Virus record (IMG/VR): IMGVR_UViG_3300011888_000003
Length of the DNA stretch: 64,000 bases
Origin: an uncultured virus (IMG/VR IMGVR_UViG_3300011888_000003)
Taxonomy: Duplodnaviria; Heunggongvirae; Uroviricota; Caudoviricetes
Reading direction: 5' to 3' (one strand)
Position 1 is the first letter of the stretch. The number at the start of each line of letters is the position of its first letter. The position numbers and the translations under genes were made by a program. Shown here piece after piece: positions 5,263 to 64,000 of this stretch. The notes beneath the pieces are model-generated. The model was not told the DNA's origin. It saw nothing but the letters and a program-made list of their open reading frames with translations, and searched no databases.

Positions 5263-5266
5263 TTAT

Positions 5267-8286: not shown

Positions 8287-8294
8287 CCTTGCCC

Positions 8295-8531: not shown

Positions 8532-8549
8532 TCCTTCCTATGTGTTTAT

Positions 8550-8579
8550 TTCCAACGAAGCGGGCGGAACGCCCTACGC
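8550..8579 (-). promoter_or_regulatory. GAA-triloop hairpin element
   Basis: TTCC-AACGAA-GCGGGCG-GAA-CGCCCTACGC. Confidence 0.5.
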
Positions 8580-8647
8580 TCTTGCAGTGTGAGAAACAAT
8601 AGCCGAAGGCCCACCTTAGATAGGCAGGCCGTTCGACAAAGCGTGGC

Positions 8648-41502: not shown

Positions 41503-41563
41503 AAGACGCGGGGGCTAGACCCCCCTTCTTATATAAGCAACCTTTTGAAGGAGGAAAATGATA

Positions 41564-42145: not shown

Positions 42146-42193
42146 GAACGGGAGGGGAGGAAACTCCCCTCTTTTTTAATAGGAGGAATACGT

Positions 42194-42703: not shown

Positions 42704-42715
42704 GGAGGTTCTCTA

Positions 42716-47600: not shown

Positions 47601-50600
47601 AATGGATTCCATCCAAACTATTGAATGTCGCAACCGGTGGAGCACTCACGGACTTCCGTAGTCCTGAAGAATTACAAGAGTACTATGAATCGGGCGAAGA
47701 TGCGATTCGCAAAGGGCGCTACTGGAGTATCGGCTCGACGACTCCTTGGTTCGGTGGCAAGATAGAACGCTGGCAACCCAACTGGTATCGCCGCATGAAA
47801 TCCGATTACAAGTTCAGTGAGAATGGACTTGGTTCAGAATCGGAATACTTTGCTAACAGTTGGATGCCGACGCTGACCCACCCACTTGCACCACTGCGTC
47901 ACTTCATTTTTGACCGTTATCACTATGAAAACAAGTTGAAAGACGAACGTCCATTCGCTGTTACAGGTGGATTCGCCGAGCTCGACAACATTCCGTTGTT
48001 CGGACCATTGATTGATGACACGGTCGGTCGTCTCATCAAACCACGTCTCGTTGACCCAAGGCTAGAGAAGTCACACCGTGAATACTTAGAAGCATACAAT
48101 GAGCGTCTTGCTTCGGCTTATATGGGTGCTAATAGTGGGGCGATATTGGAAGGTATGCCTTCAGGTGGCATCAATCGAATCGATGATGCGGTCAACGTCG
48201 ACCTCGGAGAAGCAGGTGGCATCGAAAGCCCGATGTATGAAGGAGATATCTATAGCTCTGGAGCGCTCTCAGAAGGCGTCGTAGGCGCTTCTGGCTCTGG
48301 TGGGGGCGTAGGTACTGGTAGTGGTGCAGGAGGCTCAGGAGGACGTACTACGGTCAATGACGTGTCTCGAAACGATTTAGCAAGCTTGAATGCATCGATA
48401 TCGGCGACAACGTCTCCGACAAGTCGAGGTATTAGTAGTGTGGATGGTATGCGTGACCCGAACGTCCTCTATGATTTAGACAATGCCATCTTCAAGGATA
48501 GCTTGACGAACCTACAATATGGTTCGTACCGAGACGTCTTCTACAATGCATCGGAGATTGCCGGTATCTTTGGTTTCGCGACGAAAGCAACGAGTGGGTT
48601 CGAAGAGGGTGGACGAGGTGCGACGTTACAAGATTCGAGTCTTATGGGGTCTTATAACAAAGCATTCTGGGACATGGAACTTGGTGGACTCGGTGGAGAT
48701 ATCTCCGAGATTGCCCGTCGTTACCTTGCTCGTGACCCGAACAAGAACTATTACAACCCGATTCGGAACAATATGCCTGAATTCATGCCTGGGGCAGAGT
48801 ACTTTACGGACTTCAAGCATGGGGACCCGTACTCGAAAATCAGTGCTGGTTTGATGCGACTTCCTGGTGAGGCATATGAAAAGTTGTATTCGGTCAAGAA
48901 GGATGAATACGGGAACTACTCGGCGCTCGACCGCTTACGGATTCTGGGTGACGTCGCGCCGTACTCTGACCAGTACCGAATGGCAAAAAAACAAGTGTCT
49001 CTTTTAAACAGTAATGGACTGTTGTCTGAAGAAGACAATGAAGAATATAAAACGATTCGAGAACAGGTCAAACAAAAGAAAGAAAAGAAACATTTCTATG
49101 ACCGGAAGTTCAACAAGGCTGACCTTGATAAAGAGACAGTCACGGTCACGAAAGTACTCGATGCGAACACGTTCGTTACAAAAGAGTACGGTGAAGACAA
49201 TCCAATTAAGCTCGCTGGTGTCCAAGTCAAAAACAGTGACCAAGAAACGGTCGACTTCATTCGTCAGTTTATCTATGAAGGGGCACGGGTCAAGGTCGGA
49301 CTTGATGCCGACCCGCTCTTCCGTGAACGCGACGACTTGATGAATACGATGCGTGCCGTCGTCTACACGAATCACAATGAAGAAGGCAATCCATTCTACT
49401 TAACGAACAAGGGCGCCAACTTGAACTTCATGCTCGCGAACCGTCCTGAGACGAAAGATAAGGTCACGATACGTGATGACGGGACAGCGGTCGCAACAGC
49501 GGCACTCTATACGAAAGAACAAATCACAGTAGGTCGAATGTACGATACCGTTGTCCGTGATATCTTACCGCAACTTCCGATTGCTGGAGTATTCGCGGAT
49601 AAGTTCTTACAAGTTCGTTCTCCTGTCGAATCATATCGCCGAGAACTCTACGGAAAGTCATGGCGTGACTGGGCAAGCCCATGGTCTGGCTGGATTGAGC
49701 CGATGGTTGACACCATTGCTTCTCGTAACCCGATTATCGCCGCCGCCGAAGGATATGGTATCGGATATATGTTCGGTCGAAATCGTTCCGGTGGGATGAT
49801 TGGTCTTGGTCTTGGTGCAGTGACTGGTCTTCTTGCGACGGCTCGCACCGTCAAAGAGATTGGAAGCGATATCGTTGGTAGTGATACAGCATCAGTACCT
49901 GGTCGCCGTCAAAAAGAACGAGAGATGGATGAATACTTCGATAAGCTCAAATACGTCAAGTTCAAAGGACTCTATGAGAGAGCGGCTGACATGGCCCTTG
50001 AACAAGAAGGATTCGATGTACGGGGTTATATCGAAGAACAAGATGAACGAGGTAAATCAAATAAGGGATTAAAGAAATATATCCAAGAACAGAAAAAGAG
50101 GTTGTCGATTCAGAAGAAAAGTGGTTATGGTGACATAGAAGTCCTTCGAGCAGAGCTTCGAGGGCATAATGAAACCTTAAAAGAAATCAATGATACCCGA
50201 CCTCAACAAAAAGTCGGACCGCTTGCGGCGCTTGCTCTTCGTTATAAACAAGAATATGAAGCGACGATTTACGCGGCAGATGAGAACATCAATTTCCAAA
50301 ACATCTATCGTGCACTTCCGGCAAAAGACCGTGAGTATTTCACGAAGTTTTTAGAAGCAGGACCAGAAGAACGAGAAGAGATTCTACGACTCGTTCCACA
50401 GTATCAACGTGCCATCTATCAAAAGTCATGGGGACTTGAACCAGACAAAAAAGAAACGCTCGTCCAGTACTTCAAGAAACATCCTCTTCCAAAAAGCAAC
50501 TGGGAAGGATGGCAAGCAAGTAAAAGTCTTGATAGCGTCCGTGTCAAAGTCATGCAGAACGAAGGCATGGAGCTGACGGAAGCGAACTATTGGGATGATG

Positions 50601-50836
50601 ACGAGGCACGTGCGATGCAATCAAATGCGAAAGCCATCCCAATCAATGGTGGGGGCTCGCTCGATATCGACCGGCTCCAGAAAGTACTCAAAGGAGCAGG
50701 ACTAAAGGACGTCCAAGTCTCCATGAGTACGATTCAAGGAGATGGCGGCATCAAAGCTCAAATGGATATCCAACTAGATAGAACGAAAGAAGTATTAGAG
50801 GGTATGACGAGCAATTGGCAAAACTTATTCAGTTAA
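44618..50836 (+). CDS. giant virion protein (2072 aa), tape-measure/ejection-type, with an SNase-like OB segment
   Basis: Follows the chaperones; hydrophobic Gly-rich segments; VTKVLDANTF...IKLAGVQ near 49145-49225. Confidence 0.6.
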   Translation: MADMRDFQREQQKQEQSSHLSGLIKVSAVGAIGYGAVKYRHTIAAPLVRRAMESKTLGRTGNILSDAFGRGETFINALGTKPGFNSFVRNAMDPSDFERRTRIAYRAQQAARNQEGQLKNAPRLARRTMEHISSEKSLHHEAIKMARVQYGKQAVKENKALEPYLGQGLERMLIDDGMFSRRTTQQGVVRFLDKYSGEKAKKTSNFHLDFSGQPEGAKESFVDELFNTLHQTTSRIGRKYDKETGGLILNKAMSDEEKKFVRDRIEVLGKLEFNALMKSTTTEANASFMNNSMALQGFDVLRGKDFANGANKELYNQLMPIDRSNGKRKRLDFLQEIRRNAERYGESPDIVNEMVIDGSWYINRKTNKIIDGSNVERRADKGVEFLRNNFQVPFLNFNPIDLIQYSSIKASKDAPLFRVFKEGQTMAFANKQIFDMESKTFSNAYETADSNMLKRNSNAAVTPLAKDYAYSGNASYDIDTLVDNLNKVKGDITKLDVNTGKIEDNLILVSNEFGVPKRFTESMAGVTQHDGEIGLLRAIWGGRQENESIGGRIKRGLTKGNNPDYGPNLLDALKGKQSVLEVEETYNRMTSLLSRGTRGMSHDAHYFWGEELNKSMNKAYGIDIDFARMGASEEYTIDVAQQLSNVIAGRKKMPEEDMALIGGAQRKVLDIFENYNKEQALFMRQQTTAPDKSLISSEFINIASVGYDRLIPQTEDLRKSIEQLSLASYRRATGKTIEETMNEGLKNGMVRAPEIQETLDLQNLTRLESFGSRIKNEDIDVSTEGLKEFKSTFNQGTAYESMMGSMKRKDPAFGPGPGDEIVEHYGKDVHFQMIKRHRGMLETINQGIEDFAGENGSYAEKAYGVAHGVGDYFGHLFASNKKMENVTAGTMVPWFFASRLDDAMAQLGLGLGNNLRGSAMSIIMNQWARRIVLPYVAYQQAMYFDGLTGDTISDTAADGYVNMQMDTAKVKEKLGINDIGRSWSRVFAGTDQMAEWIPSKLLNVATGGALTDFRSPEELQEYYESGEDAIRKGRYWSIGSTTPWFGGKIERWQPNWYRRMKSDYKFSENGLGSESEYFANSWMPTLTHPLAPLRHFIFDRYHYENKLKDERPFAVTGGFAELDNIPLFGPLIDDTVGRLIKPRLVDPRLEKSHREYLEAYNERLASAYMGANSGAILEGMPSGGINRIDDAVNVDLGEAGGIESPMYEGDIYSSGALSEGVVGASGSGGGVGTGSGAGGSGGRTTVNDVSRNDLASLNASISATTSPTSRGISSVDGMRDPNVLYDLDNAIFKDSLTNLQYGSYRDVFYNASEIAGIFGFATKATSGFEEGGRGATLQDSSLMGSYNKAFWDMELGGLGGDISEIARRYLARDPNKNYYNPIRNNMPEFMPGAEYFTDFKHGDPYSKISAGLMRLPGEAYEKLYSVKKDEYGNYSALDRLRILGDVAPYSDQYRMAKKQVSLLNSNGLLSEEDNEEYKTIREQVKQKKEKKHFYDRKFNKADLDKETVTVTKVLDANTFVTKEYGEDNPIKLAGVQVKNSDQETVDFIRQFIYEGARVKVGLDADPLFRERDDLMNTMRAVVYTNHNEEGNPFYLTNKGANLNFMLANRPETKDKVTIRDDGTAVATAALYTKEQITVGRMYDTVVRDILPQLPIAGVFADKFLQVRSPVESYRRELYGKSWRDWASPWSGWIEPMVDTIASRNPIIAAAEGYGIGYMFGRNRSGGMIGLGLGAVTGLLATARTVKEIGSDIVGSDTASVPGRRQKEREMDEYFDKLKYVKFKGLYERAADMALEQEGFDVRGYIEEQDERGKSNKGLKKYIQEQKKRLSIQKKSGYGDIEVLRAELRGHNETLKEINDTRPQQKVGPLAALALRYKQEYEATIYAADENINFQNIYRALPAKDREYFTKFLEAGPEEREEILRLVPQYQRAIYQKSWGLEPDKKETLVQYFKKHPLPKSNWEGWQASKSLDSVRVKVMQNEGMELTEANYWDDDEARAMQSNAKAIPINGGGSLDIDRLQKVLKGAGLKDVQVSMSTIQGDGGIKAQMDIQLDRTKEVLEGMTSNWQNLFS

Positions 50837-50838: not shown

Positions 50839-50868
50839 AGGGAGGGGGGGTTTCCTCCTCCTCTTTTT
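50839..50868 (+). terminator. intrinsic terminator
   Basis: G-rich/C-rich stem followed by TTTTT. Confidence 0.5.
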
Positions 50869-50890
50869 ATTCAAATTGGAGGAATTCATT

Positions 50891-53800
50891 ATGGCGAAAC
50901 GACAAGACTTAGAACGCATCAATCTCGATGCCTCAAGAAGTCATCAGCTGTTTGGTATCGGAAAGAACTCAAACCACTTCGGTGCAGATGAAGAATACAT
51001 TACACAAACAGATAAAATCCTTGAGCTTATCAATGCAGATGAATCGACACCTGCTGAGAGAAAGGCATGGGCTTCGATGGGTGCGTTCCAAGGTGACCGT
51101 TTCTCAAGCGGTCAAGGTACGTATGAAGCCTTGATGGGTATCAACAATGCATCAAAGATTGCCGTCTGGGACATGGAGACCATCGGGACACCGGATTTCA
51201 TGCGAGAAAATGACCTGGCACGAGGCAAGAAGAACGTGGCAGACTTTTTCAGCGTGACGGAGATTGCGATGAAGACAGTAAACGGTAAAGGAAAGACGAC
51301 GAAAGCAAGCCAAGAACTTTCGATGCTCATCCGTCCTTCGAAATCTGCTCTTGAAAAACTAGAAGAAACGGTCGCACAACTCGATAGAGTCGGTTGGATT
51401 GGATTATCGGAAGACATGCGCCGAACACTTTCTGATATTACACAATATGGGAAAGGAGCACAGATTCGAAAAGAAGGCGATATCACCTATCTTGATGGAC
51501 ATGGTACGAAGTTCAAGGAAGTTGCTCTAGGAAGCAAGAATGGACGAGCACAGATTGAGCATGCGATGAATACTCTTCGACAAGCGACACCGATTGAGAA
51601 AGCGTTGATGATGATAAATGAAGTCGTTGACGAAAAGACAGTCTTAGCAGGGCATAACGTCCATGGATTTGACCAACGCGGAATGCTCGATGTCCTGAGC
51701 GCAACAAAACAACATTTCAAAGATAGCCCGACACAATACAAAGCCATCGACCGATTGCATCAAAACATGCAACGGGCACAACTGGATACACTCGAATTCT
51801 TCCGTACATATTATGAAACACCATTGCGTGACTTTGGTGGGAACATGACGCTAGGAAACTTGTATCGAAACTTATCAGGGAAGAAAAGTGAGAATGCCCA
51901 CTTTGCGTTAGCCGACATCAACATGAACATCTCGTTGCTTCAAAAAGCATTGAAGGATGGGAAGAACACACGTGCTGTTCAAGCATTGAAGCGTTTATCG
52001 AAGAACACAGTCAATGTCGGACAAGTCTATTATTCAGAGCGGGGTATCGGGGGCGACGGCAAATACGATGGGATTTACGATAAGAACGAACAAGGGAAGT
52101 TCATTCGTGCGCGTGATTTTCGTAGTGCCGCCATCAATAAGAACAATCAATATGAAGTCGTCTCTGAAATCCAGAAGATGCAAATCGATGGAACGGACAA
52201 GTATGGTATTACATTACTAAATAAAGATACAGGATATTATCACCAGATTGTACGAGACCGTTTTGATGACATTGCGAACATCTTCCAAAAGAACATGACG
52301 CTTGAAAGCAATATACCAAAAGCACAACGGGAGCAACGGAGCGCGACGACAGCAAAAGACCGTGCACGCCGTGAATACTTAAAACTATTCGACGTAGCGG
52401 AATCAAAAGGAGTCGAACGACTCAAGAAGAACTATGCTTTCCTCGATGCGTATGATTCAGCCATCGACCAGATGCGTGAAGGCGGCAGTGCGATAAGCAA
52501 TGATACACATCAACTTGCCTTGAAGAACGCATTAGGTGTTATCAACAAAGGTGTCGATGAACAGTATCAAGTTGGTGAGAACTATGGGAACAATGTCGTT
52601 AACATGCGAGGACGTCTCGATGCGGAACGTGCCATCTGGGAACAAGCGATTGACCGTATTGAAAAAGAAGATTTCCATTACACGTTCACGAAAGATGGTA
52701 AAAACGAACGTCACGTTGATAAGAAAAAACAAACGTTAGCCCTTTCCAAGATTCAAGAACAATTAGAAAGCATGGGAACTGGAGAACGAGAGCAATATGC
52801 GACACCTGGTCGTCGTGTGATGACGATGACGATTGCCGGACAAGTCCGTAATTTTGATTTAAGTGACCGTACCGCCTTCATCTCTTCGATGTCGAACGTT
52901 CTGAAGAAGAAAGGAAACTTGAATGAAGCTCGTAGCATTCTGATGGAAGTCATCACGAAAGCTGAACAAGAAGGTATGATTTCTGCCAACCAGCGAAAAG
53001 CTTATCTGAAAATGGCAGAAGCCCGATTCTTAAAGAACCAAGGTCTTCAACCGAACGAATTGACACGTATCTCAAAAGCGCTCTATGAATCAACACGAAA
53101 CGGTGTCTTGAGTCCACGTGTATTACGTGGAAAGAATGCTGTCCCAAGTGAAGTGATTCAAGGAGAACACGGGACATATCTTCGTCCGATTCAACAAATC
53201 ATGCAAAATGAATACATTGAAGGGACTCCGATTACGAAATCACCGATTGGCTCCGTCGCACATGAATTGACGACGACAGGGGTAACGGGACAACACGGGA
53301 AACTCTTTGCAGAAGATGTCATCCGTAGTGCGATTGAACAAAGCAAAGGATATACGAAATATAATATCAGCGAACAAATCTTCTTGAATGCACCAAAGAA
53401 TGTCAAAGAACGACTCAAGGAGCATGAAGCAGGAGTCAAGATGGCGCTCGAACGTTCAGGATTGGTGAACCTACCTAAGATGAACTTATCCTTACCGAAT
53501 GGCACAGGGAAAGAAAGCAATACGATTGAAAGCAAGGTCATTGCTCTTGCGAATCAATATGGTCAAAACTTTGGTGTTCGTGTCGACTTCGATAAAAAGA
53601 CGAACAAGATGTTTATGTTCTTAACCGACAAGACAAAAGCAGAGAGCATGATGGGAATGAGTTTTGATGAGGCGCGTGCTTCAAGAAGCGTCGCACATTT
53701 CGAGATTCCGATGATGCGACCTGATGGAACGATTGAGATGAGTGGACAACAATTCGTCGGTCGATTGAGCTCTCGTGTTGGAAGTGGGAATAACTTAAAA

Positions 53801-56800
53801 GTCACGAACGTCTCCGATGAGTTCTTTGAAGAGATGAAACGGCATGCGAATTACTTGAATCAAAGTGTTGAAGAAGGAATCAAGGCAGGGACACCATTGA
53901 CGGCTGGAGATATCCATGCCCGCATCAATGGGAAGATTCGTTCGATTCGTGAAGGGTTGATTACGAACCACAGTCGTTTCGAAGCAAACCCTGAAAAAGA
54001 ATACCGTCGAAAATCTCGTCTTGCGAACCATAACCGTGCGACACAAATTGATGTCACAGGAATGGCAGAACCTTGGTTCGCTGACAATCAACATAAGTTC
54101 AAAGAAGGACGCATCGAAAAGATTCAGCAACGAATGAAAGAAGAAGGCATCAGTTTCTTTGATGCGATGAACCGTGTCGAGCAAGGAACCTTCCATCGTG
54201 AGATTGACGGGTATTACAATGAACACTATCTTGCAGGAACAGGTGCGAAAATCAGTCAACACGGTCTATCGGACTCACAAGCACTCCGAGGTATTCGTTC
54301 GACAGTCGATAACCGTGACTACTTTGCTTTTGGTGGACTCAACCCGACTGCCCGTGAGAACTTGAACAAGGCGATGAACTATCGTGCACTCGCGGACACC
54401 GATGATGAAATCGGGGCATACAAGAATCGCTTGATTCAACACACAGGAGATAGTCGTGTTGCTCACCGTGCTTTGACGGGTCTATCGATGACGGAACTCG
54501 GAAAAGAAATCAAGGGCAATGAAATCAGTCACTTGAATGTGCGGACAGCACTATCAAACGAGCTCCAAGTGAGTTCGATGGTGAAGGGTGCTATTTCAAA
54601 CGTCGAAAATGATATCAAATCCCTTGAAGCAAAAGCCAACTTAACAGATGGTGAAAAAGTCAGATTGCAAAGCTTGCATACGATTCGAAAAGAATTACAA
54701 AATGCATCACAAATGTCGATTCATGATGGGATGATTATCGCCGCGAAATCATTGCAAGATTCCTTTGCGGTTAAGCAACAGACGTCCGTCGACATCGGTG
54801 TTCAGAATCGCCTTGACCCTCGCTTGAAAGCTTTGATGGAAGAAGCAGGATTCTTCACGGAACAAGGACTAGCAAAAGCAGGAGNNNNNNNNNNTAGGAA
54901 AGGAAATCACGTTCAATCAATTGGAGCAAGCAGGGCTCATTCAAAAGACACAAGGTGGATATCGTCTGACAGTCGGAGAGCTTGTAAAGATGAATAACGG
55001 AGAGCTGTTCACACAACGAACAGGAGAGTTCAAGAACTGGCACAAAGACTTTTCCATCACAGGATTTGATGCAGATAGTGGCAAAGCCATCATTGATATC
55101 AATGACAAAGCAGGGCAAGGAAACAAGTTCATTCTCATGAGTGGTGGACGTCATACGGCGCACTTCGTTTCCGATGGTGCACTTGAATACATGCTTGGTG
55201 ACTCTGAAGTCAAAGCCATCGTCCCTGAAGTCGAGATGAAGAAGAAAATGGGTGGTACGTATATTGCCGGTGTCGTCAATGCCCATGTGTCTGAAATCAC
55301 ACGACAATTGACAGGAGAAGTCGAAGCGAGTGATGCCATCAAGCAGTTGGCTCAAAAACATAAGTATACGATTGGGGATTTAAGCCAAGCAGGACTTCAT
55401 GATGCTATCCTCGAAGAAGCAATGGCGCCAGGACTCAAAAAACTTGGAGTGGCAGGAGCATATCGCTTTGATGGTGGTAGCCTCATCCTTAATAAAGAGT
55501 GGAGCAAAGGGTTCGGCGAAGGAACCGATATCTTATCAAACATTGAAGGATTCGAAAATGCCGTCACCGCTGTATCTGGTTTCCAACGTACATCGAAGAA
55601 TGGTACGTATGAAGTCATCAATGAAGGGTTCGGGAAACATGATATCTACACGTACGAATCGACAGGTGAGAAAACCCGTGTGGGCAAGAAAGAATTGAAT
55701 GTTCTTCGAAGTATCTATGGTGATAGAAAGAGTGCGATTCCTGAAAAGATTGTCGGGGGAGCAGACTTCACGCACTGGTTCGAACAAGACATGAAGGCAA
55801 GTCAACTTCATGCAGAAGAAACCGGTTCGATGATGAAAAGCTACTTTGACATGATAGAAAAAGGAGGACCAGGGAAAGGAGATGTTGTTCTTGACTTCTC
55901 TGGAGAGACGGTTGGTAACGACGTCAATAATGTATTCAAGAAGAATGGTGTGAAATATGTCGATGGTGATGTCGTCCATAATACACGAAAAGCGATTACC
56001 GCTCGTGATATGGTCATGCTCGGGGAAGACTATGCTGGAAGTATCATCAACTATAAAGGTTCAAACATTTTGATGAATGGTGAGGAACGTAGAATTCAGG
56101 ATATCGCTAAAAAAGGGACATACTTGAAGCTTCCTGAAATCTTCGGAGAAGACCGATTCGTACCGATGATTGATACGTCTCACTTGTCACGGATGGATGA
56201 ATCGGAGGCAATGCTTCTTGAAGTCCAAAAGAAACAATTGCGTCTCTACGGAGAACTTGAAAAGTTCCGTAACCTTGGAAAAGGAACAGGAACAGAAGAA
56301 GAGCTCCTCGCAATCCGTGATAAGCTCGTAGGTAAAATCGAGACCAGTGTCACAGAACTAGAGAAGACGACAGGGCAGTTCATGAGTGAAGCACGTGATG
56401 GCGGAGCACTCAAAAAATTGACATCGGCGAAAGTCAGTAACTCTGGTCAGTTCCGAGTGCAGACCATCAATCCGTTCGAGAACAACAGCATGGTCGATGG
56501 AGAATGGAAAAACACAGGACCATACAAAGAAGGCACGATGTATATGTCTCGTGAACGTGTCAAAGAATTGATTCATGGAAATGAAAAAAATGTTGCAAAA
56601 GTCATTCTTTCTGAAGCAGAAATCGAAGACCATTATACTCGGATGACAGAATATGCTTATGACAATTTTGATGATGAGATGCTCCAAAAGCATAAAAAGA
56701 ATCTTATTGGCATGGCAGAAAAACATTCAGGTGAAACTTTGATTGATAAAGCACTGGATAAGATGACCCTTGGTCAAGGGGATGAGGGGCTTTATGGGAA

Positions 56801-58535
56801 CGTACTTCGTAACCCGACCATCTCCGACTCGACGATGCAAGCTCAAAAAATCATGATTGACCCGACGATGGCTTCGGATGACCGACGGGCTCTCGTATCC
56901 GTCGGAACATTGAAACTGATGGCCGCCGATACCGATGGTGACGTTATCAATGCCATGTTGAACCATTACAAATCAGGTGAAGCGCAGAAGTGGCATAACG
57001 TCATCAAGGAACGTCATAAGTACACAGCGCTTGATGCGATGGGGAAAACAAATGACATCATGAATGATTATCGAGAAGACCTCATCAATACATATGAAGC
57101 GAATGCAAAATATGCTGATGGAAACATGAATGTCTCTCGTGCTGAAATCGAGAAACAAGTCGACTTGATGATTCAAGACAATCAAGCAGGCAAACAGACG
57201 ACGGTACAAGCCCTCGTCCGAAATGGATTCGATAAAAAAACGGCACAGAACTTCTTAAGCAACAAGATGACTTTGGATGAAGACATCATGGCTGTCGAAT
57301 CCCGTCAAGGTAAAGGTGCTGTCGGACCGATTGATAACTTGCGTGAACGGATGCGTGAACTGCATACGATGACACAAGAAGCCCTTGTGGGCGGAGGCGT
57401 ACTCGATGCAGAAGAAGCACGACGCAATAGCTTCATCGTTCAAAAGTTCGGTTCTACTCTTTCCCAAGAACTTATCTCTTCCAAGAAATTGACGATTGAT
57501 AAGTATGCGGCAGAAGTCGAAGGAGAAGGAACGTATACGACGAAAGAAGAAATCCGAAGAGAAGCACAGGCTCGAATGAAAGCCCGTCATGAAAAAATCA
57601 GTGACATCCAAAACATGCTTCGCAATCCAAGTGCTCAGAACATTGATACCCTTCGGACAGAGCTTGATGCCCTTGGTATCTTCAGCAGTGGGACGGAGAT
57701 GTATCATGGAGAACGTGTCCAAAAGTCAGAGATTTTAGAGACAGGGTTAAAAGAACTCCGCATGATGCAAGAGTTGAATCAACGCCAAGGTGGATTAAGT
57801 GCCGATGCCTTGTCCATCAATGAATCGACAGGTATCAAAGATTCCAGTCGTATCCGTGAAGCAACGCTTGGAAACAACTTTATGCCGACATCAACGAACC
57901 GTGCGAGTTATGCTCATCTCTATGACAACGGTGAAGAAGTATTTGACCAGGCAAAAGAAAAATGGAACCAGAGCGTTTTGAATAAATACATGGACATTCA
58001 AGCGGCACGGGAAACCGTCAATGACCAGATATTGCGAGCAGACCAACAGCCGTTCCGTTCCATCAGTGAAATAGAACGACGTGGAGGTGGATTCATTTCA
58101 GGTGCGACGTCCGATGCACTCGGTTCAGCCAAGCGTGCGACAAGCACAGCGTTTGATGGTCTAAAGGTACAAAAGATTGCACCTGTCGCGGCTGTGTTCG
58201 GTGCGATATGGGGTGCAAGTGCGATGCTTCGTACGGCACCGACACCAGAAGGATTAGAAGAACAACAACGTGCGGCTCACGTAGAAGTTGCACCAGAGCA
58301 GATGTTGACTTCCCCTACAGCAAGGGTTACAACTAATCCAGAGAGTACGATGTTGCGAATCAGCGGGCGAGGCACAGGTGGTCTTGACCACAATGCACTT
58401 GCTGGTATCGTCAACTCTGAAATTCAACAGATGAAAGGTATGGCATTGGATATGAACGTTAATCTCAATGACAATACCGCAAAAATAACGAATAGCTGGA
58501 TACAGCAAAAACTGAATGAGTCATTGAATCAGTAA
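50891..58535 (+). CDS. putative virion single-chain two-barrel RNA polymerase with N-terminal DEDDh exonuclease (about 2,550 aa, one gene across an N gap)
   Basis: WDMET, GHNVHGFD and HFALAD; then beta-like and beta'-like motifs ending in RNPT...MAADTDGD (56928-56942); both reading frames are open up to the gap. Confidence 0.75.
54885..54894. other. assembly gap (10 N)
   Basis: Run of n characters; true length unknown. Confidence 1.
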
Positions 58536-58556: not shown

Positions 58557-61500
58557 ATGAGCGCGACAGAAGCGTTGATTGTATCACTACAAAAACCTGC
58601 CGAGGATAAACCTTGGCGGGTGGTAATGTTAATCCAAGGAGAATTGTTGACGGCAACGAGCATCGGGGCTGGCGGGCAAACGCCTGCCGGTCCTCGTTTG
58701 CTTGAAGCCATTAATCACTTGGAACAACACATCAAAGGATACCCATTCGAATATGGCATGACGATGGTTGCTGACGGGACGAACCGCTTGCTTGCTGTGC
58801 GTTACATTGGCAAAGACATCGGTATGATGGAAGCAACGAAAAAGACCCTTCAATACATTAAGAAAAGTAAAGTCACACCACGAAACTTTAAAATTGATGA
58901 GAATGTCATGTTCTCTGAGACCTTCAATGCGCAAGACTTCATGGAGACGGAAGAAGAGCCTGCTATGATGATGATGATGGCAGTCGCTGAAGGACCAGAT
59001 GGCGGAGGGACACCAGAAGAGACAGAACCACAAGAAATGGAAGAAAACATTGGTTCTCCTGACCAATTCTTACTGTATGGAGAAGTGGCGAGGGTCGTCG
59101 ATGGTGATACCGCGACCATCAAGACTCTTGCCATGCATAAAAGTCTAAAAGGAAAAAAGATTGGAAAGTACTTAATGGATGTAAACGTCGAGTTCAATCT
59201 TCGTTTCATCGGTATTGATAGTCCTGAGACACGTAAGCAAGGGAATGCCGCCATCTATGCTGATAAACAAAACTCTGCACTTGCGGCACTCTGGGGCGTA
59301 ACGACAGATGTCGTGTATGATGTCGGAGAAGAAGCGAAACACACGACAGCGGCGATGATTACCCCTGGTACGGACAATGCTTATGTTCTCGTTGCATTAC
59401 AATACGATAAAGTAAAAAATGTACCGCTTCATGATAATGGAGACGGACAACGTCCTCTTGGTGTCTTGTATCATGTCAAACCAAACAAAAAAGACAAAGA
59501 TAAATACAAGACGACAAAAGAAGGACTCATCATCAATGTCGATGAATTCTTAAAGGCGATGTCAGAAGACAATGTCAAAGGAACGAACATCAATAAGACA
59601 TTGCTCGGAAAACGATACTCAAAAGACCCACGTCTTCCTTTATATCAACACGATACATACAACAACAATAAATCAACCGAACAAGGCATCGATGTCATCA
59701 CATGGGGTGATGAAGTCGGATATAAAGAGCCAAGTGATAGTTATTATAATGAGAAAGACCCGAAATCGACGACGACCGATGACATCTCAGAACAAGACAG
59801 CATCGATAAAGCAGAGACATTGTATGAGAACAAATATAAAGAACCAGTCTCGAATGCACTTGATTTCGTCTTGCCATATGATGACCGTCTTGCTGATGAG
59901 AACGGTATCTATTCTCGTAGCATCAAGTTGTCAAAAGATGAAGATGCACTCGAAGAACCGTTCAACTATGTGTATAAAGTGCGTATCGGAGATGTCTTGA
60001 TGACAGTCCCGCCGCTCTCGATTCAAATGTCACGTATTAGTCAGATTGAAAAGGTGAAGACACTTCGGACACAGACATCGATGATGAAGGGAGTCGGGAG
60101 TGCGAAGACGACGATTGAGCTGGAATTGTACTTCCACGGAATGGATGCCATCAACGGGAAAGAATGGGGTTCATATGAGATGGACGGAAAGACATATCCA
60201 TTCTACATGGACGGTCTTCGGACACTCATCGCTCAGTTCAAGAAAGCACCTTTCTTGCCGATTGACAATAAATACATCAATGAAAGTCTGAACATTCACA
60301 ATGTGGCATTGATGAACTTGACGGTACAGACAGTCCCTGATTTCCCACAATCGTTAAAAGCAGTCTTGACACTCGCGAAGTTCGAACCAGAAGCGTTCAT
60401 GATTGAGGAACCGAGTCTTTCGAACGTCATGAACTATCCATTGTTCCGTTGGTACTATCAGCAAGCACTTCGTAAGCCGGAAGACTATGAAATTCCGAAC
60501 CGGATGTATTTAGAAAAAATCGAAGAGTTGACGAACGAGTTTAATTTCTTCATTGCTGACGAATCGAAATTGAAATACCGAATGGATGCCATCAATGAAT
60601 TGTTCCGAATGGTTCGTCCTGAGGAGTATGAAAAACAAGTCAAAGAAAAAACGTCTGATAGTGGTCAATTGATTGAAGACGAGAACCGTGTCAAAAAAGT
60701 CCTGAAACAATATGACATCTATGAAGGATACCGAGAAGAAGACAAAAAGAAATTCAAAATCGGACCAGAATCCAAGGATGCGTGGGGACGAGAAGCTTAT
60801 CAAGAAATGTATGAAGGAAGCATGCCAGTCTTTAAAGGTTCGGGCGCGAACTCATCGTTCGTCTCAAAGAGTTATGTCTTCTACCAATACTTCCTCGATA
60901 ACTATTTCCTCGACAACCCGAAATTCAAGGAATACTGGGAAAAAGTAGAAGGGGCAAAAACGCCTGGGTTCTTCATCATTGCCTTCAATAACCAAGAGAA
61001 CGCAAAGAAAATTGATGCACGTGCGGCATTGATGCTTGAAGGAAAACATAAAAAACGTTCTGATGGTAGTGCTTATTTCGTCATTCCAGCAACAAAAGCA
61101 AACATCAAGATTCTTGAATCGATGAAAGGTGCACGAGAAATGGTTGAAGGAGACGTGCAGACGTATGCCGAGAAGTATACGCAACTCCAAGACATCGTCG
61201 ACTCGACCGAGCAATCAATTGCCATGGTGCCATATGACATTCCTGGATTGATTCCGACGTCCATCAATGTCATGTATGAGAATCAATTCTCTAGCATGCA
61301 GATGCAAATGCTTGATTCTCCGACACTTCAATACATGGGAGGGCAAGACCCTTACATCCAGTTAATCTTTGAAGGGGACCAAAACACGGTCATGGCAGTG
61401 AACGAGATGCTTCTTGTCATTGAACGCTACAATCGTCAATATCGTCAAGGTATCGTTGCTGGTTTCATGGATGTCACGAATCCCCTTCTGAAAATGTTTG

Positions 61501-64000
61501 GGGTCAAGACACTGATGCCAGAGAATGTCCAAATCAACACGGTTCCTGGCTTCCCTGACCGCTTCCAAATTGTCATGGCATTATGTGGCTTCGACCGCAC
61601 ACAGCGCCGTCAGGAACGCTTAGATGGCATCAGCGGGGCATATGACGACACACGACTTCAAGATAGACGTGTTAATAACTACAGTGAAGAAAAAGATTAT
61701 GCCATCATGGAATACCGGATGCGGGGCATGGAAGTTTATCCAGACCTAGAACTTCCGACATTCGAAGAATTGAATAAAGTCCTACCTTCACTCAAAGCAG
61801 GATTCGATACATACGAGAATCGAAGCGACCAAGTCTATGTCGACCCTGACTTCTATATCGGTTCACAAAAGACACTTCGTGACATGATTGCACAAGTCGT
61901 CAAGAAAGACAGTGAGTTCAAGGTCGTCGCCTATGACAACCGAGGATTGAAAACGACTTCAAAACTGAATGGTGTCGGATTCATCGACCCAGCAGAATCA
62001 AAGACGTTCGTCGATGCGTTCAATAGCCTAGACAAAGCCGTCGATTATGTACCTTCCGATTTCACATGGCAGAACGAAAAAGAGAAGGATTCGACGACGA
62101 GTGCGAAGTCAGAAGAGGATGCACTCGATAGTGTCGAACTTGAAGGAGACATCAAGGATTATGTAACCATCGGTGAAGATGGAAAAGCACCATATCAGAA
62201 ATTGCCAGGATATGAGAACTGGAAAAAGTTCAGTGGCAATAAAGGTAAGTCAAAAGAAGAGTATGAGAAATGGAAAAAGAATCCTGATAAAAACCCACGA
62301 GAAGAAGTCGTCTGGTTCGCCATCATGCAAAAAATGATTGAAAAGATTGGTAGAAAATATCTAGAAGGTATGGACGACGACTTCAAGATGATTGCGAATG
62401 GATTAGAAGGAAAACATAATCTACCTTCGGACATGACGAATGAAGACTGGTCTGACCGTTACCGTAAGAGTAATTGGCACAACGTCGGAGACATGATAAT
62501 GAAGATAACGGACGGGAACTACGGCGCTACGACATTTATGCCAGATGACATCTATGGAAAGAGTATGTATCTTTACTACAAAGGACTTGCGGAAGAAGAA
62601 GACGACTACGAGAATTGGAAGAAGATTCCGAAGTCGGACTTGTCTTACATTAAATCGAGCGCGGAGTTCAAAGCATCTCCAATGTGGGCGTATAACGGGA
62701 AACGAACGAGTTGGGGTAACATCAGTAAAAACTTGTTCAATAACTATTATGACGGCTCCATCGTGCCGTATGATGATGACCCATTAAAAGGAGTCGTCAA
62801 GATTCCGCTTCATCGTATGGGTGGTATCATCAAATCGATTGCAAAGTATCATTCACGTTGGACACCATTTGAAGGTGATGGTTCTGGTAAATTGACGGAC
62901 GGATGGCGCGCGGGACTCATGGGGTATCCTCTCGACATCGTCAAAGACAAAGCAGAAGCAGAGCGTTTGATGTATGACTGGAAATACAATCTTGAGAAAT
63001 CGATGGAATTGCTCGCTAAGTATTACAAACATGCGTTCTCTCAAAAAGAATTACGGTACAAGGCGTTTGCAAGTGAATGGATGGTTTGGCAATATGGACT
63101 ACCAAATCAAGACCGTGAAGATGACTTGTTGCCGATTGGGAAGAAATCGGATGCTTCTGAGGTCCTGATGCCGAATGCTTTGAAGCCTGCCATGGGTTAT
63201 CGTAATGTCATCATGCGAGAATGGCGGACGACGTATGCGGCCGTTGATAAAGAAGCACCAGCTGGTATCTTCGCTGGAGGGAAAGGGCCTGTCGTCCCTG
63301 CCGTGTTTGCGATGTATAACGGATTTGAAGGTAATACGATGGATGTCTTTACAGGAGATAAGGATGCCATCATCAAGAGTCTCGTCAATGACTTGTATTA
63401 TCCGATGGATGCATACAAAGTCAATGATGATAAGACGAAGATTGTCGCCGCTTACAAGAAAGAGAAGATGGCGTCCATAAAGGCAGAGACGAGAGCAAAA
63501 CTTGAGAAGAAAAGTCGTAACGAGGTCGATTTGATTTTCTACAACCATCTCTCTCAACTGAAGAATGTCATCGGTAAAGGAGACAATGAAAAGAAATTTG
63601 CGGCGAGTGTGTTCGCAAGTATCTTGACCGGTATCGGAGCGGTGTTACTCGCATTGTTCGGAACGGTCACATATGGACTCGGTTTCCTTGCGGCAGGTGC
63701 ACTTGGCATCGGAGCAGGAATGCTTAGTGATAGCGATAGTGATAAGATTGCGAACATGGCACCAAAAGCAAAAGAAATCATGGATGCCTACAATCAGATG
63801 GACGGGGCGAACGAAACGCTTCAGAACAACCGTCTCGTCAATCGGAATACACCGCAAGAGAATCACTTCAACATGTATAAAGACATGTTAGAGTATGACA
63901 TGCAAGGACGCATGGTCAGGGCGTTCCCGACCTTCCAGATGTTCATAGTCGACGAAGGAAAATGGATGGCGAACTATCGTATTTGGGACAACCTCTATGG
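58557..64000 (+). CDS. giant virion protein (over 1,800 aa, runs off the window) with thermonuclease-like and degenerate lytic-transglycosylase-like regions
   Basis: AGGAGG RBS; absent from the ORF track because it has no stop in the window; start and end are in the same frame; VARVVDGDT...RFIGIDSPE and AGLMGY...DWKYNL. Confidence 0.75.
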   Translation, partial: MSATEALIVSLQKPAEDKPWRVVMLIQGELLTATSIGAGGQTPAGPRLLEAINHLEQHIKGYPFEYGMTMVADGTNRLLAVRYIGKDIGMMEATKKTLQYIKKSKVTPRNFKIDENVMFSETFNAQDFMETEEEPAMMMMMAVAEGPDGGGTPEETEPQEMEENIGSPDQFLLYGEVARVVDGDTATIKTLAMHKSLKGKKIGKYLMDVNVEFNLRFIGIDSPETRKQGNAAIYADKQNSALAALWGVTTDVVYDVGEEAKHTTAAMITPGTDNAYVLVALQYDKVKNVPLHDNGDGQRPLGVLYHVKPNKKDKDKYKTTKEGLIINVDEFLKAMSEDNVKGTNINKTLLGKRYSKDPRLPLYQHDTYNNNKSTEQGIDVITWGDEVGYKEPSDSYYNEKDPKSTTTDDISEQDSIDKAETLYENKYKEPVSNALDFVLPYDDRLADENGIYSRSIKLSKDEDALEEPFNYVYKVRIGDVLMTVPPLSIQMSRISQIEKVKTLRTQTSMMKGVGSAKTTIELELYFHGMDAINGKEWGSYEMDGKTYPFYMDGLRTLIAQFKKAPFLPIDNKYINESLNIHNVALMNLTVQTVPDFPQSLKAVLTLAKFEPEAFMIEEPSLSNVMNYPLFRWYYQQALRKPEDYEIPNRMYLEKIEELTNEFNFFIADESKLKYRMDAINELFRMVRPEEYEKQVKEKTSDSGQLIEDENRVKKVLKQYDIYEGYREEDKKKFKIGPESKDAWGREAYQEMYEGSMPVFKGSGANSSFVSKSYVFYQYFLDNYFLDNPKFKEYWEKVEGAKTPGFFIIAFNNQENAKKIDARAALMLEGKHKKRSDGSAYFVIPATKANIKILESMKGAREMVEGDVQTYAEKYTQLQDIVDSTEQSIAMVPYDIPGLIPTSINVMYENQFSSMQMQMLDSPTLQYMGGQDPYIQLIFEGDQNTVMAVNEMLLVIERYNRQYRQGIVAGFMDVTNPLLKMFGVKTLMPENVQINTVPGFPDRFQIVMALCGFDRTQRRQERLDGISGAYDDTRLQDRRVNNYSEEKDYAIMEYRMRGMEVYPDLELPTFEELNKVLPSLKAGFDTYENRSDQVYVDPDFYIGSQKTLRDMIAQVVKKDSEFKVVAYDNRGLKTTSKLNGVGFIDPAESKTFVDAFNSLDKAVDYVPSDFTWQNEKEKDSTTSAKSEEDALDSVELEGDIKDYVTIGEDGKAPYQKLPGYENWKKFSGNKGKSKEEYEKWKKNPDKNPREEVVWFAIMQKMIEKIGRKYLEGMDDDFKMIANGLEGKHNLPSDMTNEDWSDRYRKSNWHNVGDMIMKITDGNYGATTFMPDDIYGKSMYLYYKGLAEEEDDYENWKKIPKSDLSYIKSSAEFKASPMWAYNGKRTSWGNISKNLFNNYYDGSIVPYDDDPLKGVVKIPLHRMGGIIKSIAKYHSRWTPFEGDGSGKLTDGWRAGLMGYPLDIVKDKAEAERLMYDWKYNLEKSMELLAKYYKHAFSQKELRYKAFASEWMVWQYGLPNQDREDDLLPIGKKSDASEVLMPNALKPAMGYRNVIMREWRTTYAAVDKEAPAGIFAGGKGPVVPAVFAMYNGFEGNTMDVFTGDKDAIIKSLVNDLYYPMDAYKVNDDKTKIVAAYKKEKMASIKAETRAKLEKKSRNEVDLIFYNHLSQLKNVIGKGDNEKKFAASVFASILTGIGAVLLALFGTVTYGLGFLAAGALGIGAGMLSDSDSDKIANMAPKAKEIMDAYNQMDGANETLQNNRLVNRNTPQENHFNMYKDMLEYDMQGRMVRAFPTFQMFIVDEGKWMANYRIWDNLY

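What the first reader, a model, noticed from the sequence alone, without database searches (positions are those of the whole stretch)
50891..58535. Hidden second RNA polymerase: single-chain beta+beta'-like enzyme with a fused DEDDh exonuclease in the tail module
Seen: motifs that match multisubunit RNAP, in the same order. Beta-like: FGGLNPTARENLNKAMNYRAL (cf. [21 protein letters not shown]), IHDGMIIAAKSL (cf. FEDSILVSERV), GNKFILMSGGRH...VKAIVP...KKMGGTYI (cf. GDKMAGRHGNKG...VDIVLNP...SRMNIGQI) and TRVGKKELNVLRSIYG (cf. QRFGEMEVWALEAYG). Beta'-like: GGALKKLTSAKVSNSG (cf. GRFRQNLLGKRVDYSG) and NVLRNPTISDSTMQA...MAADTDGD (cf. LLNRAPTLHRLGIQA...YNADFDGD). The N-terminus has all three DnaQ-type exonuclease motifs. 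The comparator motifs are recalled E. coli RpoB/RpoC sequences. Inference: the gene sits among giant virion genes, so the enzyme is probably packaged and injected, as virion RNAPs are in N4, crAss-like and jumbo phages. An automated pipeline would probably call it two hypothetical proteins.
Basis: partly seen in the sequence, partly recalled or inferred. Interest (0 to 1): 0.93.

Follow-up and report, generated by a model that had tools for sequence, protein, structure and literature searches.

The report
Tail giant carrying polymerase and exonuclease
A roughly 2,545-residue protein in the tape-measure position of a jumbo contractile-tailed phage keeps the catalytic residues of cell-type RNA polymerases plus a trimming exonuclease, so the phage probably injects its own transcription enzyme, a strategy shown so far in only a few other phages.

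Summary
Window 50891-58535 is one gene, broken only by 10 N (54885-54894). All 8 long homologues found are single chains of 2466-2545 aa.

Across 41 aligned sequences R-x-P and DxDGD are invariant (41/41). K-x7-R (37/37), an acidic residue (37/37) and the five DEDDh exonuclease residues (35/35) are also invariant.

The beta'-like half is supported by three routes:
- Pfam RNA_pol_Rpb1_2 hits 7 of 20 members (best E 2.8e-5, just under the cut-off).
- PHROG 2987 hits 8 of 20.
- Profile-profile against beta' gives E 1.6e-5 and 1.4e-4, with controls at 0.17-0.5.

The beta-like half is only weakly supported (E 0.004-0.03).

The phage belongs to the Bacillus 0305phi8-36 group. The gene lies in the tape-measure slot, just upstream of the hub gene. 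It shares only its C-terminal ~150 aa with 0305phi8-36 gp146, the 'hypothetical tape measure'.

The closest precedent is the tape-measure-fused virion RNA polymerase of Thermus phage P23-45, with no detectable sequence relation. I rate it a new variant of a known kind. The fused exonuclease and the closeness to canonical beta/beta' are the new elements.

The parts
50891..58535 (+). Whole gene, about 2545 codons counting ~2 at the gap; single chain
   Evidence: GGAGG at 50878-50882, 8 nt before the ATG
54885..54894 (.). Run of 10 N that causes the apparent frame change; not a real stop or frameshift as far as homologues show
51152..52060 (+). DEDDh (DnaQ-like) 3'-5' exonuclease domain, residues ~88-390; catalytic D94, E96, D261, H337, D342
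52061..54250 (+). Residues ~391-1120: conserved region with no recognisable family; further invariant residues D393, H451, R455, D490, R494
54251..55877 (+). Beta-like half, residues ~1121-1660: invariant E1156/K1160/N1163/Y1164 block, acidic D/E1279, K1410-x7-R1418, G1596/K1598/E1599 block; spans the N gap
   Evidence: weak profile support, E 0.004-0.03
56385..57887 (+). Beta'-like half, residues ~1830-2330: switch-2-like block (1846-1856), R1971-x-P1973, D2011-x-D-G-D2015, then conserved blocks 2135-2149 and 2189-2197
56928..56942 (+). DxDGD metal-binding motif (residues 2011-2015)
   Evidence: 41/41
58095..58532 (+). C-terminal module, residues ~2400-2545: best-conserved part of the family; moderately hydrophobic segment at 2426-2444 (58173-58229); the only part resembling 0305phi8-36 gp146
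44618..50836 (+). Upstream giant (2072 aa), homologue of 0305phi8-36 gp145, a virion protein by mass spectrometry in that record
58557..63998 (+). Downstream giant (more than 1814 aa, runs off the window), homologue of gp147: baseplate hub with cell-wall-degrading domains
12057..14876 (-). The 'first' polymerase: 939-aa YonO-like single-chain RNA polymerase candidate (R-Y-P and ADFDGD invariant in 9 of 9 homologues)

Best explanation
The gene encodes one ~2545-residue multidomain protein of a 0305phi8-36-group jumbo myophage, sited in the tape-measure slot just upstream of the baseplate-hub gene.

It combines four parts:
1. An N-terminal DEDDh 3'-5' exonuclease.
2. About 730 residues of unknown role.
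3. A single-chain two-barrel nucleotide polymerase core in beta-then-beta' order. It keeps all eight residues that define the catalytic centre of cellular-type RNA polymerases.
4. A highly conserved C-terminal ~150-residue module, which probably anchors the protein in the tail or hub.

Most likely mechanism, inferred by analogy with Thermus phage P23-45 gp96: the protein is built into the virion and leaves through the contracted tail ahead of or with the DNA. It then transcribes the first phage genes independently of the host enzyme. The YonO-like polymerase (12057-14876) and/or the host enzyme take over later.

The exonuclease may trim nucleic acid for or after the polymerase, by preparing template, proofreading, or attacking host nucleic acid. 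Which of these applies is open.

Shown: gene integrity, motif conservation, exonuclease and beta' homology, synteny. Inferred: beta-type barrel, fold, activity, RNA rather than DNA product, packaging, timing.
For: Integrity. 8 of 8 long homologues are 2466-2545 aa. P0003 bridges the gap. KLEB27-3 gp034 (2434 aa) and WH1 gp095 (2515 aa) are single CDSs.

Catalytic set:
- D2011/D2013/D2015, R1971 and P1973 are 41/41.
- K1410 and R1418 are 37/37, spaced by 8 as K1065/K1073 of E. coli beta in the hhalign alignment.
- D/E1279 is 37/37.
- This is the eight-residue set of Ruprich-Robert & Thuriaux (PMC2919709, passages).

Beta' homology:
- Pfam PF00623 is the most recurrent family, 7 of 20 members at E<=1, best 2.8e-5 (24.9 bits against a cut-off of 25.3). 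All hits lie at the R-x-P to DxDGD site.
- A six-frame genome scan finds its only hit in KLEB27-3 (E 7e-5) and in WH1 (5.4e-4) inside this gene.
- PHROG 2987 'RNA polymerase beta subunit' hits 8 of 20 at the same site, while every other non-exonuclease family hits 1 member.
- hhalign of the family against 8 beta' cores gives E 1.6e-5, prob 79%, 132 columns running switch 2, R-x-P, DxDGD. The tool's own hhalign gives E 1.4e-4, prob 52%.
- Controls: reversed family 0.5, flanking giants 0.17-0.28.
- A YonO-like family scores worse against the same beta' profile (0.004, 23 columns).

Beta side. The best hit of the whole 2388-column profile is at the GDK..RH..KG / VDIVLNP / SRM block: E 0.0038 for the sub-alignment, 0.022 for the full profile, 0.16 for the reversed control.

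Exonuclease.

Tail context. Gene order is sheath, tube paralogues, two small ORFs, 2072-aa giant, target, hub giant. The same order occurs in WH1, KLEB27-3, 0305phi8-36 and IMG/VR locus L010. Labels are 'virion structural protein' in WH1 and 'structural protein' in KLEB27-3. The syntenic gp146 was found in virions by mass spectrometry, according to its record.

Precedent: P23-45 gp96 (PMC10770324, passages).
Against: - No structure could be predicted, so two double-psi barrels are not shown.
- The window's own protein and its 90% relative P0003 give no polymerase hit in Pfam or PHROGs. No Pfam hit reaches the curated cut-off.
- PF00562 (beta) gives nothing in 20 members or 5 genomes. The beta-side profile hits are not significant on their own.
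- There is no detectable similarity to the validated single-chain enzymes P23-45 gp96 or gp64 or phi14:2 gp66 (best E 0.12-0.32). The PDB profile search gives only phiKZ gp55 at E 0.52.
- The second basic residue is R, not K.
- 0305phi8-36 fills the same slot with a protein lacking any DxDxD, so a polymerase is not obligatory there.
- Virion presence of this family was not seen in any primary data here, only in deposited labels.
- Relatives KLEB27-3, WH1 and two complete IMG/VR genomes show no YonO-like gene (insensitive tests), so a two-polymerase cascade is not general.
Confidence: 0.7

Rival explanations
1. It is essentially a tail-lumen or tape-measure structural protein. The polymerase-like core is an inactive relic or has been re-used for another purpose such as nucleic-acid binding or channel formation, and only the exonuclease is an enzyme.
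For: The syntenic gene of 0305phi8-36 was assigned as tape measure on length-to-tail correlation (PMC2147016 passages). The family length is tightly conserved: 27 of 33 clusters are 2366-2564 aa. The C-terminal module is the best-conserved part and is the only part shared with gp146. No activity data exist.
Against: A relic would not keep all eight catalytic residues invariant over sequences only 22-25% identical. Conservation peaks coincide with the catalytic blocks. There are no tandem repeats.
Confidence: 0.12
2. It is a two-barrel DNA polymerase or primase-like enzyme (in the manner of archaeal PolD) with its own proofreading exonuclease, delivered to start or repair phage DNA rather than to transcribe it.
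For: DnaQ-type exonucleases are the classical partners of DNA polymerases. PHROG 192 is 'DNA polymerase exonuclease subunit', and NCBIfam weak hits are to Pol III epsilon. PolD shows that two-barrel enzymes can make DNA (passage in PMC10770324). I found no printed example of an exonuclease fused to a two-barrel RNA polymerase (search listing).
Against: The profile match extends through the switch-2-like block, which PMC2919709 ties to DNA-dependent RNA polymerases. All profile hits are to RNA polymerase beta' families.
Confidence: 0.1
3. It is an active virion RNA polymerase but is carried in the head as an ejection (cargo) protein, as in crAss-like and N4-like phages. It is not in the tail lumen and has no length-measuring role.
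For: crAss-like phi14:2 also encodes its polymerase gp66 among virion and tail genes. A largely globular, well-conserved 2545-residue protein is an odd ruler. The upstream gp145-like giant directly follows the chaperone-sized ORFs and could be the true ruler.
Against: It lies directly before the hub gene, and its C-terminal similarity to the gp146 tape-measure candidate is weak (E 0.001, prob 21%). P23-45 shows that a polymerase can travel with the tape measure.
Confidence: 0.2
4. The motif matches are chance similarities in a very long protein.
For: The window protein alone gives no polymerase hit. Single-sequence hhalign E-values are 0.03-0.15.
Against: The motifs are invariant in 37-41 sequences. 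The same site recurs in Pfam and PHROGs. Profile-profile E is 1.6e-5 against controls of 0.17-0.5.
Confidence: 0.02

Closest known systems
Thermus phage P23-45 gp96: tail tape measure protein with a fused virion two-barrel RNA polymerase (Chaban et al. 2024, PMC10770324; passages read)
   Same: Both are giant proteins in the tape-measure slot of a very long-tailed phage with a DxDGD two-barrel polymerase module. In both, a second YonO-type polymerase gene lies elsewhere in the genome. Both were first recognised through the DxDxD motif in a virion protein.
   Different: No detectable sequence relation (hhalign best E 0.32). In gp96 the polymerase is N-terminal (residues 327-1124), followed by peptidase and membrane segments; here it is central to C-terminal, behind an exonuclease. 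P23-45 is a siphovirus, this is a contractile-tailed jumbo phage. This family matches canonical beta' profiles, whereas gp96 is not hit by PF00623.
0305phi8-36 gp146, 'hypothetical tape measure protein' (2537 aa), and the same-sized BtI1/BwK1 genes (Hardies et al. 2007, PMC2147016; passages read)
   Same: Same slot between gp145-like and gp147-like giants, nearly the same length, and a similar C-terminal ~150 residues (hhalign E 0.001). The paper itself reports that only the last 60 residues align between orf146 and the BtI1/BwK1 gene.
   Different: gp146 has no DxDxD or R-x-P, no match to the family HMM and no Pfam hit. Whether BtI1/BwK1 belong to the present family was not tested.
NCgl1702-type beta::beta' fusion proteins of mobile elements (Iyer et al. 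2003, as cited and discussed in PMC2919709, passages)
   Same: Very large (2169 aa) fast-evolving single chain in beta-then-beta' order. It retains the two-barrel residues plus switch 2 and funnel, and little else is recognisable.
   Different: No sequence was available to compare. No exonuclease or tail context is reported for NCgl1702.
crAss-like phage phi14:2 gp66 virion RNA polymerase (Drobysheva et al. 2021; cited in PMC10770324; record NC_021806)
   Same: Single-chain two-barrel polymerase of ~2180 aa inside a giant virion protein encoded next to other giants.
   Different: Its motif is DFDID. It is of the QDE-1/YonO-like type. There is no similarity by hhalign (best E 0.12 at an unrelated site) and no exonuclease. 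It is a podovirus.
[quoted passage not shown]
   Same: Closest by profile. PHROG 2987 and the phage beta' subunits used in my beta' alignment match the DxDGD region. phiKZ gp55 is the only polymerase in the PDB hit list (E 0.52).
   Different: Those enzymes are split into 4-5 polypeptides and are not encoded in the tail module; this is one chain.
YonO / RdRP-like single-chain polymerases (Pfam PF05183), including 0305phi8-36 orf99
   Same: Single chain, with R-x-P and DxDGD.
   Different: PF05183 does not hit the target family. It hits the other gene of this window at 12057-14876 weakly (E 1.2e-4). The target keeps canonical K-x7-K/R spacing and a switch-2-like block.

Membership tests
Two-barrel (double-psi beta-barrel) RNA polymerases | DxDxD metal-binding triad in the beta'-type barrel | tested here: met
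   D2011, D2013, D2015 in 41/41 sequences
Two-barrel (double-psi beta-barrel) RNA polymerases | Invariant R-x-P 30-40 residues before the triad | tested here: met
   R1971, P1973 in 41/41; aligned to E. coli beta' N-R-A-P by hhalign
Two-barrel (double-psi beta-barrel) RNA polymerases | Two basic residues of the beta-type barrel | tested here: met
   K1410 and R1418 in 37/37, 8 apart, aligned to K1065/K1073 of E. coli beta. The second is R, not K. The alignment itself is weak (E 0.004-0.15).
Two-barrel (double-psi beta-barrel) RNA polymerases | Acidic residue of the beta-type subunit (E. coli ED, Rpb2 D837) | tested here: inconclusive
   D/E1279 is acidic in 37/37, but its alignment to the beta N-F-E-D block has E 0.33
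Two-barrel (double-psi beta-barrel) RNA polymerases | Profile similarity to the beta' barrel family | tested here: met
   hhalign E 1.6e-5 and 1.4e-4; PF00623 hits 7/20, best 24.9 bits, just under the 25.3 cut-off; PHROG 2987 hits 8/20
Two-barrel (double-psi beta-barrel) RNA polymerases | Profile similarity to the beta barrel family | tested here: inconclusive
   PF00562: none. hhalign top hit is at the right block: E 0.0038-0.028, reversed control 0.16-0.27
Two-barrel (double-psi beta-barrel) RNA polymerases | Two double-psi beta-barrel folds with the active site at their interface | not testable with these tools
DEDDh (DnaQ-like) 3'-5' exonucleases | Exo I D-x-E, Exo II D, Exo III H-x4-D | tested here: met
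   D94, E96, D261, H337, D342 in 35/35
DEDDh (DnaQ-like) 3'-5' exonucleases | Profile similarity | tested here: met
   PHROG 192 E 3.7e-8 for the window protein, best 5.5e-10 in the family. PDB exonucleases E 0.004-0.07. Pfam RNase_T 21.1 bits, under the cut-off of 24.
Tail tape measure proteins | Gene between tail chaperones and baseplate hub | tested here: met
   Directly upstream of the gp147-like hub gene and one gene removed from the chaperone-sized ORFs
Tail tape measure proteins | Length sets tail length; protein lies in the tail lumen | not testable with these tools
   No virion images or mutants. Length is conserved: 27/33 clusters are 2366-2564 aa.
P23-45 gp96-type tape-measure-fused virion polymerase | Sequence homology to gp96 and its architecture (N-terminal polymerase, then peptidase and membrane segments) | tested here: not met
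   hhalign best E 0.32. The domain order differs and there is no peptidase hit. It works like gp96 by inference only.
YonO / RdRP-like polymerases (PF05183) | Match to PF05183 | tested here: not met
   No hit in the window protein or in 20 members

The most novel reading that the evidence does not exclude
A conserved C-terminal 'tail-lumen anchor' carries exchangeable cargo. In this clade the cargo is a beta-beta'-type polymerase covalently joined to an active DEDDh exonuclease. This would be the first two-barrel polymerase with its own exonuclease, working together on the entering genome end, either by resecting DNA to expose a template or hairpin signal or by proofreading or trimming transcripts. 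In 0305phi8-36 the same anchor carries an unrelated body. The 12-13 copies of the conserved hairpin motif before the small early genes (1199-8615) would be this enzyme's signals.
Probability: 0.3. Interest if true: 0.82.

Novelty: new variant of a known kind. Interest (0 to 1): 0.62.

Why it matters
Virion-delivered cell-type RNA polymerases are known from phiKZ-like, crAss-like and P23-45-like phages. This family would add the 0305phi8-36 group of Bacillus jumbo myophages.

For that group, the comparative paper I read (Iyer et al. 2021, passages) lists only the YonO-like enzyme. The slot itself was published as a plain tape measure.

The family is closer to canonical beta/beta' than the other single-chain phage enzymes. 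It could therefore help link the cellular and viral branches of two-barrel polymerases.

An invariant exonuclease on the same chain is not described in the papers I searched. It offers a direct test of whether transcription start on injected DNA needs nucleic-acid trimming.

It also shows that 'tape measure' annotations by position can hide enzymes.

Tried and rejected
No fold search was therefore possible.

ESM Atlas gave no usable hit and no model.

Searches that found no polymerase signal:
- Pfam and PHROGs on the window protein alone: exonuclease only.
- NCBIfam: nothing relevant.
- PF00562 on members and genomes: nothing.
- hhalign of the family against single sequences of P23-45 gp96 (1-1300), gp64, phi14:2 gp66 and the window's YonO-like protein: only the DxDGD stretch or unrelated sites, E 0.06-0.32.
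- Family against the YonO-like family A3: E 0.13.
- Adding three more beta sequences did not improve the beta hit.

0305phi8-36 gp146 as an orthologue is rejected except for its C-terminus.

Searches for relatives:
- IMG/VR with the protein alone: none. With alignment A2: 7 loci.
- GTDB representative genomes: none.
- The window's assembly is not held, and the nearest record G001 lacks the region.

Search for a YonO-like gene in KLEB27-3, WH1, G002 and G003: none. These tests also missed or barely saw known cases, so they show little.

The early-region hairpin motif was not found in relatives (1 weak hit in 5 genomes). Rfam and tRNA scans were empty.

I did not try to recover the bases under the N run.


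Full report
WHAT IS THERE

The finding spans two overlapping ORFs in different frames, 50876..54997 and 54921..58535. The frame change coincides with the only N run of the window, 10 N at 54885-54894. Both frames are open up to the gap. A GGAGG lies 8 nt before the ATG at 50891.

A search for longer proteins found 8 homologues, all single chains of 2466-2545 aa. The closest, P0003 (90% identical, 2544 aa), aligns 1-1330 with the upstream part and 1333-2544 with the downstream part. About two residues are therefore hidden by the gap.

An exhaustive search of 1.84 billion representatives found 33 clusters. Of these, 27 are 2366-2564 aa. At least two of the six short ones are fragments of full-length cluster members. 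The gene is thus one chain of about 2545 codons. Residue numbers below count from the ATG, with two X at the gap.

WHOSE GENE IT IS

The window is a tailed-phage structural region with these genes:
- terminase (21692-23422), portal (29143-31236), major head protein (34020-35138)
- tail sheath (39922-41502) and three tube-like paralogues (41558-43489)

The head protein is 67-69% identical to those of Bacillus phages WH1, Edson and KLEB27-3 (217-234 kb) and 39% identical to that of 0305phi8-36. The target has single-CDS homologues in three of these phages:
- KLEB27-3 gp034, 2434 aa, 'structural protein'
- WH1 gp095, 2515 aa, 'virion structural protein'
- Edson

The gene order is the same in WH1, KLEB27-3, 0305phi8-36 and the IMG/VR locus L010: sheath, tube, two chaperone-sized ORFs, a ~2000-aa giant, the target, then a ~2300-aa giant.

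The flanking giants are homologous to 0305phi8-36 gp145 and gp147. Hardies et al. 2007 describe gp147 as a T4 gp27-like hub with cell-wall-degrading domains (PMC2147016, passages).

The middle gene of 0305phi8-36 is gp146: 2537 aa, 'hypothetical tape measure protein', a virion protein by mass spectrometry according to its record. It is not detectably related to the target:
- It has no HMM match, no BLAST match, no DxDxD or R-x-P and no Pfam hit.
- The exception is the C-terminal ~150 residues (hhalign E 0.001, probability 21%).

This agrees with the 2007 paper. It reports that a same-sized gene in the BtI1/BwK1 elements aligns with orf146 only over the last 60 residues.

THE EXONUCLEASE

Residues ~88-390 match several exonuclease families:
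- PHROG 192 'DNA polymerase exonuclease subunit': E 3.7e-8 for the window protein, best 5.5e-10 in the family, 6 of 20 members
- Pfam RNase_T: E 4.8e-4, 21.1 bits, under the cut-off of 24
- Solved DEDDh exonucleases with the family profile: E 0.004-0.07

The five catalytic residues D94, E96, D261, H337 and D342 are present in all 35 sequences that cover them.

THE POLYMERASE CORE

In my 41-row MAFFT alignment, with identities to the window down to ~22-25%, these columns are invariant or nearly so:
- R1971, P1973, D2011, D2013, G2014, D2015: 41/41
- K1410, R1418, E1156, K1160: 37/37
- D/E1279: acidic in 37/37

These correspond to the eight residues that Ruprich-Robert & Thuriaux list as common to all two-barrel polymerases. 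That set is three Asp, R and P of the beta' type, and one Asp and two Lys of the beta type (PMC2919709, passages). The one conservative change is K to R.

The family consensus before the beta' barrel (D-M-S-G-R-F) resembles the switch-2 block D-Y-S-G-R-S of E. coli beta', to which it is aligned. The same paper ties switch 2 to DNA-dependent enzymes.

Tests of homology, beta' side:
1. Pfam scan of 20 members. RNA_pol_Rpb1_2 (PF00623) is the most recurrent family, 7 of 20 at E<=1, best E 2.8e-5 and 24.9 bits against a cut-off of 25.3. Five of 19 reach E<=0.02, all at residues ~1877-1994, which is the R-x-P to DxDGD site.
2. Six-frame scan of whole genomes with PF00623. The only hit in KLEB27-3 (E 7e-5) and in WH1 (E 5.4e-4) lies inside this gene. 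There is none in 0305phi8-36. There is also none in P23-45 or phi14:2, whose divergent polymerases are experimentally proven, so the test is insensitive rather than permissive.
3. PHROG 2987 'RNA polymerase beta subunit' hits 8 of 20 members (best 1.6e-4) at the same site. Apart from the exonuclease family, every other family hits one member.
4. Profile-profile. The family against eight beta' cores (E. coli, a Staphylococcus-like record and six phage subunits) gives E 1.6e-5, probability 79%, over 132 columns running switch 2, R-x-P, DxDGD. The tool's own hhalign with seven of them gives E 1.4e-4, probability 52%.
5. Controls. The reversed family gives E 0.5, and the two flanking giants give 0.17 and 0.28. 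For scale, the window's YonO-like family reaches only E 0.004 over 23 columns against the same beta' profile.

Beta side. PF00562 finds nothing. Profile-profile against beta C-terminal regions puts the best hit of the whole 2388-column profile exactly on the G-D-K..R-H..K-G / V-D-I-V-L-N-P / S-R-M block. K1410 and R1418 fall on K1065 and K1073. The E-values are 0.0038 (sub-alignment), 0.022 (full) and 0.0067-0.028 (larger beta set), against 0.16-0.27 for the reversed control. Further collinear but insignificant hits align the family's L-N-x-R-A-A-Y-M and S-T-Y-D-G-M blocks with beta G-Q-N-M-R-V-A-F-M and N-F-E-D (E 0.33). The beta-like half is therefore plausible but not proven.

WHAT SPEAKS AGAINST

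- The window protein and P0003 alone give no polymerase hit.
- No Pfam hit passes the curated cut-off.
- There is no similarity to P23-45 gp96 or gp64 or to phi14:2 gp66.
- The PDB profile search lists only phiKZ gp55 at E 0.52.
The Atlas has no model.

HOW IT LIKELY WORKS

Shown:
- It is one chain.
- It has an exonuclease with an intact active site.
- It has a beta'-type barrel region with intact catalytic residues.
- A candidate beta-type region lies upstream, so the order is beta then beta'.
- The C-terminal module is the best-conserved part of the family, has a mildly hydrophobic segment, and is the only part shared with the gp146 tape-measure candidate.
- The gene lies directly before the hub gene.

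Inferred:
- The C-terminal module docks the protein in the tail or hub.
- The protein leaves the virion on tail contraction.
- The polymerase transcribes the first genes of the entering DNA.

The model for this is Thermus phage P23-45 (PMC10770324, passages). [quoted passage not shown] It transcribes pre-early genes, including that of a second, non-virion polymerase.

This window also holds a second polymerase candidate, a 939-aa YonO-like gene at 12057-14876(-). Its evidence is PF05183 at E 1.2e-4, under the cut-off, and R-Y-P plus A-D-F-D-G-D invariant in 9 of 9 homologues.

The role of the exonuclease is open. Template preparation at the genome end, transcript trimming or proofreading, and attack on host nucleic acid are all possible. 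An alternative is that the enzyme makes DNA, as the two-barrel PolD does.

COMPARISON WITH WHAT IS KNOWN

The arrangement works like P23-45 gp96, but the protein is not a member of that family. There is no sequence relation and the domain order differs.

By profile it is nearest to canonical and phiKZ-type beta' subunits. By architecture it is nearest to the NCgl1702-type beta::beta' fusions discussed in PMC2919709, which were not available to compare.

Literature coverage:
- Iyer et al. 2021 (PMC7824862, passages) list only the YonO-like enzyme for 0305phi8-36 among group 3 jumbo phages.
- The 'Two RNAPs' table of Chaban et al. (supplement file 8) has eight Bacillus-phage rows, all AR9/phiKZ-like. 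It has none for WH1, KLEB27-3 or 0305phi8-36. One of the ten supplement files (file 3) could not be searched.
- Full-text searches found no paper naming this family a polymerase, and none describing an exonuclease fused to a virion polymerase (listings).
- No paper on KLEB27-3 or WH1 is in the library, so their 'structural protein' labels could not be traced to data.

Earlier notes of this scan (unchecked AI notes) report polymerase-like modules in tape-measure-slot giants of several other phages. The theme therefore seems to recur. I did not test those claims.

VERDICT

- It is a new variant of a known kind. Interest is 0.62.

Noticed in passing
window 1199-8615 (12 copies) and 19258: A conserved ~41-nt motif among small minus-strand genes. 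On the coding strand it is a short GC hairpin (GGCC / 3-nt loop / GGCC, extendable) followed by a T-run, with conserved flanks. It lies just after one gene's stop and 15-35 nt before the next RBS and ATG. It looks like a terminator, or could be a hairpin-type signal for a phage polymerase. It was not found in five related genomes.
   Followed up: partly
window 12057-14876 (-): A 939-aa YonO-like single-chain RNA polymerase candidate. PF05183 gives E 1.2e-4 (under the cut-off) and phrog_8308 gives 3e-8. R-Y-P and A-D-F-D-G-D are invariant in 9 of 9 homologues. tblastn found no match in the phage collection.
   Followed up: partly
L003:32624-40237 (0305phi8-36 gp146) versus window 50891-58535: Same slot and nearly the same length, but unrelated bodies joined to a similar C-terminal ~150 residues. 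This suggests exchange of the cargo part on a conserved anchor.
   Followed up: partly
window 44618-50836 and 50891-58535: Both giants contain no cysteine at all (0.0%). The downstream giant has 0.1%.
   Followed up: no
window 63594-63660 (residues ~1680-1700 of the downstream giant): A strongly hydrophobic segment (Kyte-Doolittle up to 2.23 over 19 residues) in the hub/lysin giant, much stronger than the segment in the target.
   Followed up: no
window 41558-43489: Three consecutive paralogous ORFs (195, 169, 257 aa) all hit phrog_9206, which is labelled 'major head protein'. They correspond by position to the tail tube and tube paralogues of 0305phi8-36, so the PHROG label looks inherited from a mis-annotation.
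   Followed up: no
window 24509-25387 and 28233-29123: An endonuclease (phrog_4645, E 4e-60, with an HNH-like N-terminus) and a DNA repair exonuclease (phrog_7339, E 4e-40) are inserted between terminase and portal.
   Followed up: no
protein P0018: A family member is recorded as a hypothetical protein of a Bacillus stercoris assembly on a 223,644-base contig. A whole jumbo-phage-sized replicon was therefore assembled with a bacterial isolate.
   Followed up: no
window 50840-50862: A terminator-like hairpin plus T-run lies between the 2072-aa giant and the target gene.
   Followed up: no
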